From assembly GCF_965641715.1 (NCBI RefSeq), contig NZ_OZ282453.1: DNA of 64,000 nt; one strand, written 5' to 3'. Below are positions 28,501-34,500 of this stretch, piece by piece; the stretch's first letter is position 1, and the number at the start of each line of letters is the position of its first letter. Origin of the DNA: Escherichia coli (GTDB lineage: Bacteria; Pseudomonadota; Gammaproteobacteria; Enterobacterales; Enterobacteriaceae). Made by a program: the position numbers.

Positions 28501-31500
28501 CGCGAATTTTGACAGTTTTTGCATCCTGATCCCAAGTTACGTCATTTTTATAGACGACAGGATCGTGTTTAACCGGGGTATCGCCACCATCGTCTGGCGG
28601 CACTGGCGCATCACCGCCGTCGTCTGGAACTGGCGTATCACCGCCATCATCTGGTGGAACCGGCGTATCACCGCCGTCATCTGGCGGAACTGGCGTATCA
28701 CCGCCGTCATCTGGCGGAACTGGCGTATCTCCGCCGTCATCTGGCGGAACTGGCGTATCACCGCCATCGTCTGGCGGAACCGGCGTATCACCGCCGTCAT
28801 CAGGCGGAACTGGCGTATCACCGCCGTCATCAGGCGGAACTGGCGTATCACCGCCGTCATCTGGCGGAACTGGCGTATCACCGCCGTCATCTGGCGGAAC
28901 TGGCGTATCACCGCCGTCATCTGGCGGAACCGGCGTATCACCGCCGTCATCAGGCGGAACTGGCGTATCACCGCCGTCGTCTGGCGGAACAGGCGTATCA
29001 CCGCCATCATCCGGAACTGGGGAGTTATTATGGTGGTGATTGTCATCGTCACTTAAGGTATATATAGCAATTCCCGTAGCTATTGCAGCAAGACCTGCAG
29101 CTGCCCATGGTAAAACTGCACTATCTTTATTTTCTCTGCACTCCGCGGATAAATTTTCTAGCTGCTCTTTGCTCAGGGAATGAATATTTGCCGGACATGT
29201 TATCTTACTGGACTTACGTGTTTTTTCGGTTGAGTCGGGTATTGAAGTATCCGCAGCCCATGTCTGGCTACTTAACGCCATGGCAACACAAACAGACAAT
29301 AATTTTTTCCTTTGCATATAAAATTCCTTAGATCTAGACCGTGCGTAACAAGCCATGCAGAATTTGAAGATAAATCGTAGTAAATATTCATAGTGAAATA
29401 AGCAATAAAGAAATGCTTATATAATTCACAAAATCAATATTAAAATCAGGCAAGTAAAAGCATACAAAAAACACTTGATGGAATTATATTCCACAAAAAA
29501 CTCACTTCAATCTAAAAATTAACGACAAAAAACAAAAACTCACTAATAATTCATTGACGCTGCATATATATTTTGTGATTACATATATATTGGTAATGAT
29601 TTGTTATTTAAGGGAAGGATATATAAGGTTTTTGTAGAAATACCCACGGTAATTAAGCATGCTAACGTCAGTTTAAATACTGTAAAAGATCATTAATAGA
29701 TACATTTTGTAGCCAACTATAATTTATTTGCGCAACCATTTACCATTAATTCCCTGAACATATTGCCCCGACTTCGCGCGAGCAACAAGCTTTTGTCCAG
29801 CCAGTTTGGCTATCTCTTTAGTGGATACATTATTTTGCTTTGCCAGTTGTTGGTAACTATGGTTACGAGCTTCATTAATATCTTTTACTAATGCCTGTGT
29901 TTCGGCATCCGTTTGTAGCGCCACCAGGTAACCGTTAAGCGTTTCACCTACCCGCCCCTGACTTCTGGCTTCGTTCAGGGTTAAAGCCATTGCACTGTCG
30001 CTCATCAGGCCAATGGCCCATACAGCTATGAGTAATGTTCTTTTCATCATCACCTCAAAATAGATCGCTACGGGTTTTGAGCAGGTCTTCAACGTCCTTA
30101 TCCGCTTTAATGATGATTTCATGCTCAATTTTAACGTTCATATTAATGGTGATTGGCTCTTTCGGCGCAGCCACTTCAATGCGAGGCGTGCAACCAACCA
30201 ACATAAAAGAGGACGCAAACGCGGCTATCACTATTTTCATTGTTTTTCCTCACACTCTTTTCCTGATGGGCAGCCAGTTTCCGGTAGCTGGGCATTCTGC
30301 TCCAGCCATACCTGGAGATTATCGCCAAAGCGTAAACTGCGCCATAACGTAAAAATATTCTCTTCATGGTGATAATTAAGGTTTACCGTACCGCTTTTAC
30401 CATCGACGCGACTGGTGCCCGAAATGTTGGCCTGCATGGTTAACACACCGAGATTATCTAAATTAATCCTTGTTGATGAGCGACTGATTTCCATATAACG
30501 CAACCAGTTGATGGCAGTTCCAGCGGTCATATTGTCTTTGGCCACCGCATCTGCAGTGTCTTTATCCAGACGCAGCGTCATCGGCCCCGCGTTTGCCAAC
30601 CAGCCCTCTTTGACAATCCATTTTTCATTGTTCAGCCATAGTGGCAAGGCCCCACTGAATGCACCAGACATAGCAAATTGTTTCGGATTGACGGCGCTAA
30701 CCAGTTCGCTGGATGAGAGATTATTCAGCCGCAACAGCGCCGGGTCATGTTGCGGCATACGTAATTGTTTCATCAGCACGTTACCGCCTAACACATCGAC
30801 GCTAACATCAGTCAACAGCAATGGTTCTTCTTCAGTCCACGGATAACGCCCTTGCAAATCAGCCGTAATATTTTTCGCTGTCACCAGATTAATCACTTCG
30901 GCAATTCGCAACGTAACGGGGCCGCGAGTCCCAAGATGCCAGGCTCCATCGGCAAAACGGAAAGGCAGGACAAAATCGACACCGTTAACCTGATTATCTG
31001 GCATCCAGGCACTACCGCCTTTCAACACGCCGTGCCCTCCCGCGCGGAATCCTTGTTCAGGCGCAGCAGAAAATGCAACCTGAGCATACAGTTCACCATC
31101 GCGTAAGTTCATCTTCCAGTCGGGTGGCACCAGCGGCTGGAATACAGTCAGTGATTGTTTAGGCCACCAGGCGTTACCGCGCAGACGAATACCGTCCCAG
31201 CGACCATTTACCCGAACCGGGCCAATCTCACCAGCATGTAAATCGCCTTTAAAGAGGAAATACGTCGGATCGCGCCCATCGACGCTAAATTTTAAGGTTG
31301 ATGGCGGTAACACACTGCCGCCAGTGAACAGCGTTTGCCCGGCGTCCAGTGACAGCGCGCCGCTGAAGGAGGGATGCTGTGCGTCACGTACCCAGACGAC
31401 GGGCTTGTCGAGAATTAATCGCGGCTTTTCTACCGTCATCGTACCGTATTGTAACTGGTCGAAACCGGTGGAGAGATCGGTCAGCGTAATCGTGCTGTCA

Positions 31501-34500
31501 TGCCACTCACCTTTTCCTGCGACATCCCAGGTGGCATTCATCGGTGTAAAGCTCCCTTTTCCCCAGTAGCGCCACTGCCAGCGGCCAGCGTCAGGGAGAA
31601 AATCATTCGCCAGCCCATCCATATGCAGCACGAAATCGCCCAGTTCATTTTCATGCGCCTGCAAAATGGCCTGCAAACGTCCGTCAACACCACGTTGGGT
31701 GACTTTTACACCCGCTAAAGGCCAGCGGATTTCATCGATGTCCAGCGAATCGATGACTCTTCCCTTTGAACGAAGTAACGCGCCTGGCTCAAAGGTCAGC
31801 GTTGGGTCAGACAGACTTCCACTTAGCTGCGCAGGTAAACGGGCATATAAAATGAGGTCCGCCTGTTTCGCTTCACCGGTCAGCTGCAGAGGCAGCTGGC
31901 TGTTATCCATGCTTAATTTTCCTGGGCCAAAATTAAGCACCGCGTTGCCCTTACCCGCTTGCCCCTGGGTCAGCACACTCAGTCGTCCGCTGACCAGAGC
32001 GTTCTCAAGCCCTGCCTGCCAGTTGTCGACTTTGACACCCAGTCGGCCACTCAAAGGAAAACCTGCATACGGCCAGCTCCAGCGACCATCGCTTACGGTC
32101 AATTGTTGACGAGTAATTTGCCACGGCAAATCGAGCAACGGATCGCCGTTATCCCGTGCCAGCACGATCAATTGCCCGCTATTTTCCTGCCAGTCCAGCT
32201 CGGCATCCACCAGTGACGGTTCCTGCGGCAAGTTTAACGTCGCAGTAGCATGCCCACTTACAGGAAGTCCATCCGGCACGAGCGGCATAGTAAATTCCCC
32301 CACCAGTTTAACCGGCGGCTGATTTTCAAACGCGACGACATCCAGTTCGCTGACTGTAAGTTGTTGCCCTTTCAGCTGGCCTTGAAATTTAACTTTTTCG
32401 CCCTGATAACGCAGTTGCTGGATATCAGAGGTTAATGCGAGAGAGAGTTTTCCCTGCCATTCCTGCCAGGGAGAAAAAATCAGTTTATCGATATTGATCC
32501 AGGTGTTAGGCAGCATGGACTGCCACTGCGCGAGGGTTTTTGGAGCAGCTGGCGATTGCTCCGTCTGCGGCAATTTCGCCAGACAAGCAGAATCAAGTTC
32601 TACCGTGCCGACGTTCAATAACCAGCGGCTGGGATGTGAAAGGCTGGCGTTGGTGATATGCGCAAGCTGACAATCTCCCACCAGATAACGGAGATCGGGA
32701 ATGATTAAACCTTTACGCGTAATGCGTGGGCTTTCATCTAATGCAATACGTGTCCCGAGCGGTAGCCAGATGCCCGCCAGCGTGGGAACCCACAGCCCGA
32801 GCGTCATCAGCAGCGTCAACGGCACAAGAATAATCAGTAATAACAGCGCGAGAACGGCTTTATATTTACCCAGCATGGGTAGTTAATATCCTGATTTAGC
32901 GAAAAATTAAGCATTCAATACGGGTATTGTGGCATGTTTAACCGTTCAGTTGAAGGTTGCGCCTACACTAAGCATAGTTGTTGATGAATTTTTCAATATC
33001 GCCATAGCTTTCAATTATATTTGAAATTTTGTAAAATATTTTTAGTGGCTTAAATGTGATTCAACATCACTGGAGAAAGTCTTATGAAACTCGCCGTTTA
33101 TAGCACAAAACAGTACGACAAGAAGTACCTGCAACAGGTGAACGAGTCCTTTGGCTTTGAGCTGGAATTTTTTGACTTTCTGCTGACGGAAAAAACCGCT
33201 AAAACTGCCAATGGCTGCGAAGCGGTATGTATTTTCGTAAACGATGACGGCAGCCGCCCGGTGCTGGAAGAGCTGAAAAAGCACGGCGTTAAATATATCG
33301 CCCTGCGCTGTGCCGGTTTCAATAACGTCGACCTTGACGCGGCAAAAGAACTGGGGCTGAAAGTAGTCCGTGTTCCAGCCTATGATCCAGAGGCCGTTGC
33401 TGAACACGCCATCGGTATGATGATGACGCTGAACCGCCGTATTCACCGCGCGTATCAGCGTACCCGTGACGCTAACTTCTCTCTGGAAGGTCTGACCGGC
33501 TTTACTATGTATGGCAAAACGGCAGGCGTTATCGGTACCGGTAAAATCGGTGTGGCGATGCTGCGCATTCTGAAAGGTTTTGGTATGCGTCTGCTGGCGT
33601 TCGATCCGTATCCAAGTGCAGCGGCGCTGGAACTCGGTGTGGAGTATGTCGATCTGCCAACCCTGTTCTCTGAATCTGACGTTATCTCTCTGCACTGCCC
33701 GCTGACACCGGAAAACTACCATCTGTTGAACGAAGCCGCCTTCGATCAGATGAAAAATGGCGTGATGATCGTCAATACCAGTCGCGGTGCATTGATTGAT
33801 TCTCAGGCAGCAATTGAAGCGCTGAAAAATCAGAAAATTGGTTCGTTGGGTATGGACGTGTATGAGAACGAACGCGATCTGTTCTTTGAAGATAAATCCA
33901 ACGACGTAATTCAGGATGACGTATTCCGTCGCCTGTCTGCCTGCCACAACGTGCTGTTTACCGGGCACCAGGCATTCCTGACAGCAGAAGCTCTGACCAG
34001 TATTTCTCAGACTACGCTGCAAAACTTAAGCAATCTGGAAAAAGGTGAAACCTGCCCGAACGAACTGGTTTAATCTTGCCGCTCCCCTGCAATCCAGGGG
34101 AGCTGATTCAGATAATCCCCAATGACCTTTCATTCTCTATTCTTAAAATAGTCCTGAGTCAGAAACTGTAATTGAGAACCACAATGAAGAAAGTAGCCGC
34201 GTTTGTTGCACTAAGCCTGCTGATGGCGGGATGTGTAAGTAATGACAAAATTGCTGTTACGCCAGAACAGCTACAGCATCATCGCTTTGTGCTGGAAAGC
34301 GTAAACGGTAAGCCCGTGACCAGCGATAAAAATCCGCCAGAAATCAGCTTTGGTGAAAAAATGATGATTTCCGGCAGCATGTGTAACCGCTTTAGCGGTG
34401 AAGGCAAACTGTCTAATGGTGAACTGACAGCCAAAGGGCTGGCAATGACCCGTATGATGTGCGCTAACCCGCAGCTTAATGAACTCGATAACACCATTAG

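What the first reader, a model, noticed from the sequence alone, without database searches (positions are those of the whole stretch)
29724..32876. ydbH-ynbE-ydbL operon with overlapping and near-abutting junctions
The ydbH stop overlaps the ynbE start, and ynbE ends 4 bp before the ydbL start with GAGGTG inside ynbE, so the three are likely translationally coupled. YdbH is an AsmA-like protein implicated, as I recall, in phospholipid transport to the outer membrane together with the lipoprotein YnbE. The operon is intact here and directly abuts the island-free ydbA spacer.
Basis: partly seen in the sequence, partly recalled or inferred. Interest (0 to 1): 0.35.

Follow-up and report, generated by a model that had tools for sequence, protein, structure and literature searches.

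The report
Known ydbH-ynbE-ydbL lipid-bridge operon, mosaic allele
This is the intact, already well-studied E. coli ydbH-ynbE-ydbL operon, which builds a phospholipid-transport bridge between the two membranes; its tightly packed gene junctions are real, and the only unexpected point is that its last 1 kb was imported from another Escherichia lineage.

Summary
The minus strand carries ydbH (30237-32876, 879 aa), ynbE (30055-30240, 61 aa) and ydbL (29724-30047/30050).

- **ydbH/ynbE junction:** the two genes share an ATGA overlap at 30237-30240.
- **ynbE/ydbL junction:** the ynbE TGA is followed by GGTG and then ATGATG.

Two corrections:
- GAGGTG is not inside ynbE. It spans the last two bases of the ynbE stop codon plus the whole 4-nt spacer.
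- Curated annotations and cross-species comparison favour the second ATG as the ydbL start. That gives a 7-nt gap and a GAGG-5 nt-ATG spacing.

- YdbH-YnbE form an intermembrane bridge (PMC11126948).
- YdbL modulates that bridge (bioRxiv 10.64898/2026.03.16.712125; PDB 28oj).
- Strict termination-reinitiation coupling at the ydbH/ynbE overlap was shown experimentally in K-12 (PMC6728339).
- Coupling at ynbE/ydbL remains untested. In 46 enterobacterial loci plus the window the gap is never more than 14 nt.

It is 99% K-12-like up to ydbH codon ~733. From there through ynbE, ydbL, the spacer and the 5' end of ydbA it is 99-100% identical to Escherichia sp. E1V33 and only ~82% to K-12 (YdbL 73% at protein level). 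This haplotype occurs in 374 of 5426 complete E. coli genomes.

Verdict: already known, low interest.

The parts
30237..32876 (-). ydbH CDS (879 aa): inner-membrane-anchored AsmA-like / repeating beta-groove protein
   Evidence: ORF. PF11739 covers 1-893/893 at E = 5e-292; NF007971 equivalog scores 1399 bits. It is 98% identical to K-12 YdbH. The only strongly hydrophobic segment is residues ~6-28.
30247..30251 (-). GAGGA Shine-Dalgarno motif for ynbE, inside the ydbH coding sequence, 6 nt upstream of the ynbE ATG
   Evidence: Sequence. The anti-SD duplex is -6.2 kcal/mol. The motif is identical to K-12, where this SD was strictly essential for reinitiation (PMC6728339).
30237..30240 (-). ATGA stop/start overlap of ydbH and ynbE
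   Evidence: A 4-nt ATGA/GTGA overlap occurs in 33 of 46 scored loci; 12 others have 1-, 14- or 20-nt overlaps.
30055..30240 (-). ynbE CDS (61 aa): outer-membrane lipoprotein. The lipobox LVGC has Cys17, with Thr at position +2.
   Evidence: PF13617, E = 1.7e-16. Lipobox. It is 90% identical to K-12; the mature part differs only at E52D and E55K.
30051..30056 (-). GAGGTG Shine-Dalgarno motif for ydbL. It is complementary to CACCUC of the 16S rRNA 3' tail. It overlaps the last 2 nt of the ynbE stop codon and the 4-nt spacer.
   Evidence: The duplex is -6.9 kcal/mol. A stop codon followed at once, or within a few bases, by a purine-rich SD-like motif (TGAGG, TAGGAG, TAAAGGA) appears in nearly all listed loci. 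Two loci have a TGATG overlap instead.
29724..30047 (-). ydbL CDS from the second ATG (107 aa): periplasmic DUF1318 protein. The signal peptide ends in AMA, and the mature protein starts at L22.
   Evidence: PF07027, E = 1.1e-30. PDB 28oj_A 'probable chaperone-like protein YdbL', E = 1.2e-38, aligned from residue 22. Every residue reported as needed for YdbL function is conserved.
30048..30050 (-). It lies only 2 nt after GAGG.
   Evidence: This ATG is absent in E. whittamii, Raoultella and Pluralibacter, and is not used by curated annotations.
30675..30714 (-). Recombination breakpoint zone inside ydbH (codons ~721-734). Upstream is K-12-type; downstream is Escherichia sp. E1V33-type.
   Evidence: There are 451 informative sites. 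A single switch between 30678 and 30675 fits 436 of the 451. The same zone is found in A30, O157:H7, O55:H7 and TUM13936. dS against K-12 jumps from 0.027 to 0.77-1.77.
32877..33083 (.). ldhA-ydbH divergent intergenic region, which presumably holds the operon promoter
   Evidence: ORFs. Identity to K-12 is 99-100%. The consensus scan found no sigma-70-like match here. The AGGA motif sits 14 nt from the ydbH ATG, so the SD is weak.
29357..29723 (.). AT-rich spacer between ydbL and the ydbA-type autotransporter gene. It replaces the feaR-paa block of K-12.
   Evidence: GC is 26-31%. The spacer is present in exactly 374 of 5426 E. coli genomes. No terminator-like hairpin was found after ydbL. A promoter-like TTGAAG-16-TATAAT lies at 29510..29483 on the minus strand.

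Best explanation
The locus is the canonical ydbH-ynbE-ydbL operon, transcribed leftward from the ldhA-ydbH intergenic region.

What the proteins do (shown in K-12 by others):
- YdbH is anchored in the inner membrane by one N-terminal helix and extends a beta-groove across the periplasm.
- YnbE is lipid-anchored in the outer membrane. It adds beta-strands to the YdbH C-terminus to complete a phospholipid-conducting bridge.
- YdbL is periplasmic. It binds the C-terminal helix of YnbE and limits YnbE self-multimerisation. Its dose relative to YdbH/YnbE matters.

How the gene layout sets the protein ratios:
- Ribosomes finishing ydbH at the ATGA overlap reinitiate on ynbE using the GAGGA motif inside ydbH. 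This was shown in K-12, and the sequence here is identical from -24 to +7.
- Ribosomes finishing ynbE most likely reinitiate 7 nt downstream at the second ATG of ydbL, using the GAGG that is fused to the ynbE stop codon. This step is inferred.

In this genome the operon is a natural chimera. ydbH codons 1-~733 are ordinary E. coli sequence. Codons ~734-879, ynbE, ydbL and the downstream ydbA region came by homologous recombination from an Escherichia sp. E1V33-like lineage. That lineage lacks the feaR-paa block at this position.
For: **Identity.** Full-length Pfam and NCBIfam matches. Proteins are co-linear with K-12. The locus sits in the conserved ldhA-hslJ-ydbK neighbourhood.

**Protein features.**
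- A single N-terminal hydrophobic helix in YdbH.
- Lipobox LVGC with Cys17 and Thr at +2 in YnbE.
- A signal peptide ending in AMA in YdbL.
- PDB 28oj matches mature YdbL.

**Function.** PMC8593681, PMC11126948 and bioRxiv 10.64898/2026.03.16.712125.
- YdbH W791 and W857, which cross-link to YnbE, are conserved.
- All YdbL residues needed for function are conserved: L24, R28, E35, Y40, N58, R61, Y65, L68, N72, I79, K86, L87, R90, W104, K107. The allele differs at E60, E51 and D77, positions where substitutions were tolerated.

**Coupling.**
- ydbH/ynbE coupling was shown experimentally.
- The junction is identical to K-12 from -24 to +7, despite 22 differences across -99..+30.
- The overlap or short gap is conserved in 46 scored loci from Escherichia to Proteus.
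- Promoter-like matches inside the operon are no more frequent than in shuffled sequence (6 found, 5.5 expected).

**Mosaic.**. dN/dS is at most 0.22 in every segment, so both alleles are under purifying selection.
Against: - No transcript or ribosome data exist for this strain. Co-transcription and the promoter are taken over from K-12.
- ynbE-ydbL coupling has never been measured. The ydbL SD is strong enough for independent initiation.
- The mRNA structures that PMC6728339 proposed to block de novo initiation at ynbE are not conserved between the two alleles and are no more stable than shuffled sequence (z = -0.1 and +0.9).
- The direction of transfer is inferred only from the K-12 allele keeping its relationship to Escherichia sp. 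MOD1-EC7003 across the breakpoint (92.7% and 94.8%).
Confidence: 0.9

Rival explanations
1. ydbL is translated mainly by independent (de novo) initiation at its own strong Shine-Dalgarno motif. On this view the short gap to ynbE reflects ordinary operon compaction rather than termination-reinitiation coupling.
For: - GAGGTG pairs with the 16S 3' tail at -6.9 kcal/mol, the strongest of the three start sites.
- No stable or conserved hairpin masks the site.
- Gaps of 8-14 nt in Serratia and Cedecea are at distances where reinitiation efficiency already falls in reporter tests.
Against: - The gap is never more than 14 nt in 46 loci.
- In nearly all listed loci the stop codon is followed at once, or within a few bases, by a purine-rich SD-like motif. 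A terminating ribosome would cover the SD.
- The authors of PMC11126948 explain a tag effect by ynbE-ydbL coupling.
- The YdbL dose must be balanced against YnbE.
Confidence: 0.3
2. ynbE and/or ydbL have their own promoters inside ydbH, so the three genes are not expressed as one unit.
For: Weak sigma-70-like matches (9 of 12 positions) on the minus strand at 30748..30720 and 30647..30620 inside ydbH.
Against: - The number of such matches equals the shuffled expectation (6 against 5.5 +/- 2.5).
- Translation of ynbE in K-12 depends strictly on translation of ydbH.
- The operon structure is used and stated in PMC11126948.
Confidence: 0.08
3. The chimeric operon is functionally impaired. The E. 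coli-type YdbH body joined to a foreign C-terminal module would be a decaying or incompatible hybrid, tolerated because YhdP and TamB are redundant with YdbH.
For: - YdbH is dispensable when YhdP or TamB is present (PMC8593681).
- ydbL is annotated as frameshifted in O55:H7 strain TB182A.
- The neighbouring ydbA gene is frameshifted in the window.
Against: - All three reading frames are intact here and in A30, O157:H7 and TUM13936.
- dN/dS is 0.03-0.22 across the imported block.
- All known contact and essential residues are retained.
- The YdbH C-terminus, YnbE and YdbL were transferred together, so the interacting parts come from one source.
Confidence: 0.04

Closest known systems
E. coli K-12 ydbH-ynbE-ydbL operon (b1381-b1383): the YdbH-YnbE intermembrane phospholipid bridge with the YdbL modulator
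   Same: Same gene order, same neighbours on the ldhA side and same protein lengths. The ATGA overlap and the TGAGGTGATGATG junction are identical. YdbH residues 1-733 are 99.6% identical.
   Different: The 3' block is a different allele. YdbH 734-879 is 91% identical at protein level, YnbE 90% and YdbL 73% (107 aa; it lacks the C-terminal Phe). ydbL is followed by ydbA rather than feaR.
TamB-TamA and YhdP (the other AsmA-like phospholipid transporters of E. coli)
   Same: They have the same proposed role and are genetically redundant with YdbH. TamB, like YdbH, needs an outer-membrane partner encoded next to it (PMC8593681, PMC11126948).
   Different: YdbH is much shorter. Its partner is a 61-aa lipoprotein that multimerises rather than a beta-barrel, and a third, periplasmic modulator (YdbL) is encoded in the operon. 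No sequence relationship to TamB or YhdP was tested here.
Termination-reinitiation (TeRe) coupled overlapping gene pairs (hyfH-hyfI, astD-astB, menD-menH; Huber et al. 2019)
   Same: ATGA overlap with a Shine-Dalgarno motif inside the upstream gene. ydbH/ynbE is itself one of the pairs tested.
   Different: The second junction (ynbE/ydbL) is a 7-nt gap, not an overlap, and has not been tested.
The variable paa/ydbA region of the E. coli chromosome
   Same: PMC4951805 describes the paa locus as a region of heterogeneity lying between ydbH-ynbE-ydbL and ynbC-ynbD.
   Different: That paper treats ydbH-ynbE-ydbL as invariant core flank. Here the boundary of the exchanged segment lies inside ydbH, so ynbE and ydbL belong to the variable haplotype.

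Membership tests
YdbH family (Pfam PF11739; NCBIfam NF007971 equivalog), AsmA-like proteins | Full-length profile match above the curated cutoffs | tested here: met
   PF11739 covers 1-893/893 at 972 bits (cutoff 26.3). NF007971 scores 1399 bits (cutoff 824)..
YdbH family (Pfam PF11739; NCBIfam NF007971 equivalog), AsmA-like proteins | Single N-terminal transmembrane anchor, with the rest of the protein periplasmic | tested here: met
   Every 19-residue window with Kyte-Doolittle score above 1.6 starts within the first 22 residues. The peak is 2.95 at residues 8-26. Topology itself was not tested.
YdbH family (Pfam PF11739; NCBIfam NF007971 equivalog), AsmA-like proteins | Synthetic lethality with loss of yhdP and tamB | not testable with these tools
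   Shown for K-12 in PMC8593681 and PMC8912898. It needs genetics in this strain.
YnbE-like lipoprotein (PF13617) | Profile match plus a lipobox with an invariant Cys and an outer-membrane sorting residue | tested here: met
   PF13617, E = 1.7e-16. The lipobox is LVGC with Cys17 and Thr at +2, not Asp. Residues 10-51 are identical to K-12.
YnbE-like lipoprotein (PF13617) | Encoded immediately downstream of ydbH, overlapping its stop codon | tested here: met
   ATGA at 30240-30237. 45 of 46 scored loci overlap.
YdbL / DUF1318 (PF07027) | Profile match, cleavable signal peptide, and similarity to the solved YdbL structure | tested here: met
   PF07027, E = 1.1e-30. PDB 28oj_A, E = 1.2e-38, aligned from L22. 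The signal region is MKRTLLIAVWAIGLMSDSAMA.
YdbL / DUF1318 (PF07027) | Residues needed for YdbL function and YnbE binding (L24, R28, R61, Y65, L68, I79, K86, L87, R90, W104, K107 and others) | tested here: met
   All are invariant between the window allele and K-12 despite only 73% overall identity. The residue list is from bioRxiv 10.64898/2026.03.16.712125.
Termination-reinitiation coupled gene pair | Stop/start overlap, or a very short gap, with a Shine-Dalgarno motif in the 3' end of the upstream gene | tested here: met
   ydbH/ynbE has GAGGA-6 nt-ATGA. ynbE/ydbL has T-GAGG-5 nt-ATG (second ATG)..
Termination-reinitiation coupled gene pair | Translation of the downstream gene depends on translation of the upstream gene | not testable with these tools
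   Shown for K-12 ydbH/ynbE (PMC6728339). Never measured for ynbE/ydbL.

The most novel reading that the evidence does not exclude
The exchanged block begins just upstream of the part of YdbH that contacts YnbE (W791, W857) and includes YnbE and YdbL. The three interacting surfaces of the bridge's outer-membrane end were therefore swapped as one unit.

The most novel reading not excluded is that this is not just hitch-hiking with loss of the paa island. The YdbH C-terminus, YnbE and YdbL would be co-adapted, allele-specific partners. Mixed combinations (K-12 YdbH tail with window-type YnbE/YdbL, or the reverse) would then work less well. That would make this haplotype a natural test of partner specificity in a bacterial lipid-transfer bridge.
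Probability: 0.12. Interest if true: 0.45.

Novelty: already known. Interest (0 to 1): 0.2.

Why it matters

What this analysis adds is modest:
- A better-supported ydbL start codon.
- Evidence that tight junctions are conserved across the sampled Enterobacterales genera (Escherichia to Proteus).
- The finding that about 7% of complete E. coli genomes, including O157:H7 and O55:H7, carry a chimeric operon. Its YdbH C-terminus, YnbE and YdbL come from another Escherichia lineage, and its YdbL is only 73% identical to the K-12 protein used in all structural and genetic work.

That natural variant could serve as a ready-made specificity control for YdbH-YnbE-YdbL interaction studies.

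Tried and rejected
1. **A hairpin masking the ydbL start.** RNAfold pairs AUCAUCAU (the Ile codons of ynbE) with GUGAUGAU (both ydbL AUGs) in both alleles, and E. whittamii shows one A-U to G-C double change. However:
   - The folds are no more stable than shuffled sequence (z = +0.13 and -0.81).
   - The stem is absent in Citrobacter and Raoultella.
   - Pair counts do not exceed shuffles (157 and 217 of 500).
   - Registers slid by +/-3 pair almost as well.

   Rejected as unsupported.
2. **A conserved structure occluding the ynbE start, as proposed in PMC6728339.** The minimum-energy folds differ between alleles and z-scores are -0.1 and +0.9. Not supported.
3. **Internal promoters and an intrinsic terminator.** Promoter-like hits are at the chance level, and no terminator was found after ydbL on the minus strand.
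4. **Rfam search of 29200-33300.** The only hit was a chance one (E = 0.97).
5. **The 134-aa TTG ORF (29724-30128).** This is just the ydbL frame read back into ynbE and is not a gene.
6. **Literature search for a prior description of the ydbH-internal recombination breakpoint.** None was found in the held library. This is not proof of absence.

Full report
**1. What is in the sequence**

The interval 29724-32876 is filled by three consecutive minus-strand reading frames:
- A 879-codon frame at 30237-32876.
- A 61-codon frame at 30055-30240.
- A frame ending at 29724 that can start at ATG 30050 (108 aa) or ATG 30047 (107 aa).

Read on the minus strand, the first junction is ...GAGGAAAAACA-ATGA. 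The ynbE ATG (30240-30238) and the ydbH TGA (30239-30237) share three bases, the classic 4-nt overlap. The second junction is ...CTA TTT TGA GGTG ATG ATG AAA. The ynbE stop is at 30057-30055, followed by a 4-nt spacer GGTG and two in-frame ATGs.

**2. Identity of the genes**

- The large protein matches Pfam YdbH-like PF11739 end to end (E = 5e-292). It also matches the NCBIfam equivalog NF007971 at 1399 bits against a cutoff of 824.
- The 61-aa protein matches the YnbE-like lipoprotein family PF13617.
- The third protein matches DUF1318, PF07027.

The neighbours are ldhA, hslJ, ydbJ and ydbK/nifJ, as in E. coli K-12. Megablast finds the region in 5417 of 5426 complete E. coli genomes.

Sequence features fit the published topology:
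- YdbH has a single N-terminal hydrophobic helix.
- YnbE has a lipobox LVGC with Cys17 and Thr at +2.
- YdbL has a signal peptide ending in AMA.

The mature part of YdbL aligns from L22 to the solved structure 28oj, 'probable chaperone-like protein YdbL'. No solved structure matches YdbH by sequence.

**3. What is already known**

- YhdP, TamB and YdbH are redundant but jointly essential for outer-membrane lipid homeostasis (PMC8593681, PMC8912898).
- YdbH and YnbE form an intermembrane bridge. ynbE is required for YdbH function. YdbH W791 and W857 cross-link to YnbE. Excess YdbL is toxic when the cell depends on YdbH/YnbE (PMC11126948).
- YdbL binds the C-terminal helix of YnbE, and a defined set of YdbL residues is needed for function (bioRxiv 10.64898/2026.03.16.712125).
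- Huber et al. (PMC6728339) tested ydbH/ynbE as one of five native E. coli overlapping pairs. Translation of ynbE was abolished when ribosomes could not reach the overlap, and the SD motif inside ydbH was strictly essential for reinitiation.
- A follow-up paper showed that reinitiation falls with distance between stop and start (PMC10666635).

**4. Does the K-12 evidence transfer to this window?**

In the -99..+30 fragment that Huber et al. used, the window differs from K-12 at 22 positions, but -24 to +7 is identical, including GAGGA and ATGA. The ynbE/ydbL junction TGAGGTGATGATGAA is also identical, while 21 of the surrounding 108 positions differ.

**5. Conservation of the junctions**

A scan of one genome per species returned 47 enterobacterial loci. 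I scored both junctions in the window, in K-12 and in as many of those loci as could be scored, 46 in all.
- *ydbH/ynbE:* 33 loci have a 4-nt ATGA or GTGA overlap. Three have a 1-nt TAATG overlap. Nine Erwinia/Pantoea loci have a 14- or 20-nt overlap. In one locus (Citrobacter koseri) the ydbH match was broken.
- *ynbE/ydbL:* the distance from the stop to the first ATG is -1 to +14 nt in every locus. In nearly all of them the stop codon is followed at once, or within a few bases, by a purine-rich SD-like motif (TGAGG, TAGGAG, TAAAGGA).

Tight packing is therefore a conserved property of the operon, not an accident of this strain.

**6. Which ATG starts ydbL?**

- K-12 b1383 and PGAP in A30, O157:H7, TUM13936 and O55:H7 all use the second ATG.
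- The +7 ATG is present in every Escherichia, Citrobacter, Raoultella and Pluralibacter locus. The +4 ATG is missing in E. whittamii, Raoultella and Pluralibacter.
- GAGG is followed by 2 nt before ATG1 but 5 nt before ATG2. By established knowledge of SD spacing, 5 nt is near optimal.
- The residue numbers used in the YdbL structure paper fit the ATG2 numbering.

I conclude that ATG2 (30047) is the likely start, so the gap is 7 nt.

**7. Mechanism**

*Shown by others in K-12:* the bridge function, the YdbL-YnbE interaction, and termination-reinitiation at the ydbH/ynbE junction.

*Inferred here:* ribosomes terminating at the ynbE TGA sit on the SD for ydbL and reinitiate 7 nt downstream. This would tie YdbL output to YnbE output. 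It makes sense because the YdbL:YnbE ratio is critical.

The main rival is independent initiation at the strong ydbL SD (-6.9 kcal/mol). The two are not mutually exclusive.

I looked for RNA structures that would enforce coupling and found no support:
- A stem between the ynbE Ile codons and the two ydbL AUGs appears in both alleles.
- That stem is no more stable than shuffled sequence and is absent outside Escherichia.
- It is not supported by pair counts.
- The structures around the ynbE start differ between the two alleles.

Promoter-like matches inside the operon are at the chance level, and no intrinsic terminator follows ydbL. Rfam finds nothing.

**8. The unexpected part: the operon is a mosaic**

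Against K-12, YdbH is 98% identical, but 13 of its 16 substitutions lie after residue 733. YnbE is 90% identical and YdbL only 73%.

In 150-nt windows, identity to K-12 is 99-100% from ldhA through ydbH down to about 30732. It then drops to 71-91%. Over the same boundary, identity to Escherichia sp. E1V33 rises from 81-96% to 99-100% and stays there to the end of that contig, inside ydbA.

- There are 451 sites at which K-12 and E1V33 differ. The window follows K-12 up to 30678 and E1V33 from 30675 on; a single switch explains 436 of the 451 sites.
- Synonymous divergence from K-12 jumps from 0.027 (codons 1-733) to 0.77 (codons 734-879), 1.77 (ynbE) and 0.83 (ydbL). Against E1V33 it falls from 0.67 to 0.01 or less.
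- dN/dS stays at or below 0.22 against K-12.
- The same breakpoint zone (30714-30675) is seen in A30, O157:H7, O55:H7 and TUM13936.
- The divergent block continues through the spacer and the whole of ydbA to about window 23000. Beyond that, identity to K-12 returns to 95-99%.

In the population, the window-type ynbE-ydbL allele (99% identity or more) occurs in 374 genomes. Another 146 genomes are 80-90% identical and 4894 are about 78% identical. The ydbL-ydbA spacer also occurs in exactly 374 genomes, so allele and junction appear to form one haplotype. Matching counts suggest this; set identity was not checked.

The K-12 allele keeps its close relationship to Escherichia sp. MOD1-EC7003 on both sides of the breakpoint (92.7% and 94.8%). 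I therefore infer that the K-12 type is native to E. coli and the window type was imported. The direction of transfer remains an inference.

PMC4951805 already describes the paa/ydbA region as variable but treats ydbH-ynbE-ydbL as core flank. I found no description of the breakpoint inside ydbH in the held library.

**9. Is the chimera functional?**

All evidence available here says yes.
- The reading frames are intact in several lineages.
- Both alleles are under purifying selection.
- YdbH W791 and W857 are conserved.
- The mature part of YnbE differs only at E52D and E55K. Lys at position 55 is the common state in other genera.
- Every YdbL residue reported as necessary is retained. The substitutions fall at positions that tolerated mutation: E60, E51 and D77.

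The imported block contains the YdbH C-terminal strands, YnbE and YdbL together. This may be coincidence, since the breakpoint simply has to lie somewhere in the conserved flank, or it may reflect co-adaptation. I rate co-adaptation as unlikely but testable.

**10. Verdict**

The finding is an ordinary, well-characterised operon. The mosaic allele is a modest by-product of this check. Novelty: already known. Interest: about 0.2.

Noticed in passing
window 30675-30714 (breakpoint) and 23000-30714 (divergent block): The 3' end of ydbH, plus ynbE, ydbL, the spacer and ydbA, form a block that is 99-100% identical to Escherichia sp. E1V33 (measured as far as that contig reaches, just inside ydbA). 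The ydbH-ynbE-ydbL part is only about 82% identical to K-12, and ydbA is about 68% where it aligns at all. Everything upstream is 99-100% K-12-like. The haplotype is found in 374 of 5426 complete E. coli genomes, including O157:H7 and O55:H7.
   Followed up: yes
window 26627-26643 (about 26632): The ydbA-type autotransporter gene is split into two overlapping ORFs (26627-29356 and 23365-26643). The cause is a 2-bp deletion (TT missing from CTCTTTC) relative to strain A30, where it is one 5889-bp CDS. It is probably a pseudogene here, or possibly a sequencing error. There are also 39-bp and 27-bp in-frame length differences at about 25232 and 28602.
   Followed up: partly
window 29357-29723: The spacer downstream of ydbL is very AT-rich (26-31% GC) and has no intrinsic-terminator-like hairpin. 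It carries a good promoter-like match (TTGAAG-16-TATAAT, 10 of 12) at 29510..29483 on the minus strand, possibly the ydbA promoter. Read-through from ydbL into ydbA cannot be excluded.
   Followed up: no
L053 4001-4326 (E. coli O55:H7 TB182A): ydbL is annotated as frameshifted in this strain; there is a 2-nt length difference from the window allele. This is consistent with YdbL being non-essential.
   Followed up: partly
window 10000-23000, and the absence of any K-12 feaR-paa match in 23000-29723: The feaR-feaB-tynA-paaZ..Y block that separates ydbL from ydbA in K-12 is absent. Gene order here is ydbL, ydbA, pdxI/ydbC, ydbD, ynbA-D. In E. whittamii and E. albertii, ydbL is followed directly by ydbC-like and ydbD-like genes, without ydbA.
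   Followed up: partly
L012 (Citrobacter koseri NCTC10786), about 1564-1984: The C-terminal YdbH match ends 417 nt before ynbE, although the usual GAGGAACAACA-ATG junction is present. ydbH may be disrupted in this genome, or the BLAST segment may be split.
   Followed up: no
YnbE residue 55 (window 30076-30078): K-12 and Escherichia sp. MOD1-EC7003 have Glu or Asn-type changes in the YnbE C-terminal helix (K-12 has EELLET). The window allele and almost all other genera have Lys at position 55. In this YdbL-binding helix the laboratory K-12 sequence is therefore the unusual one.
   Followed up: no
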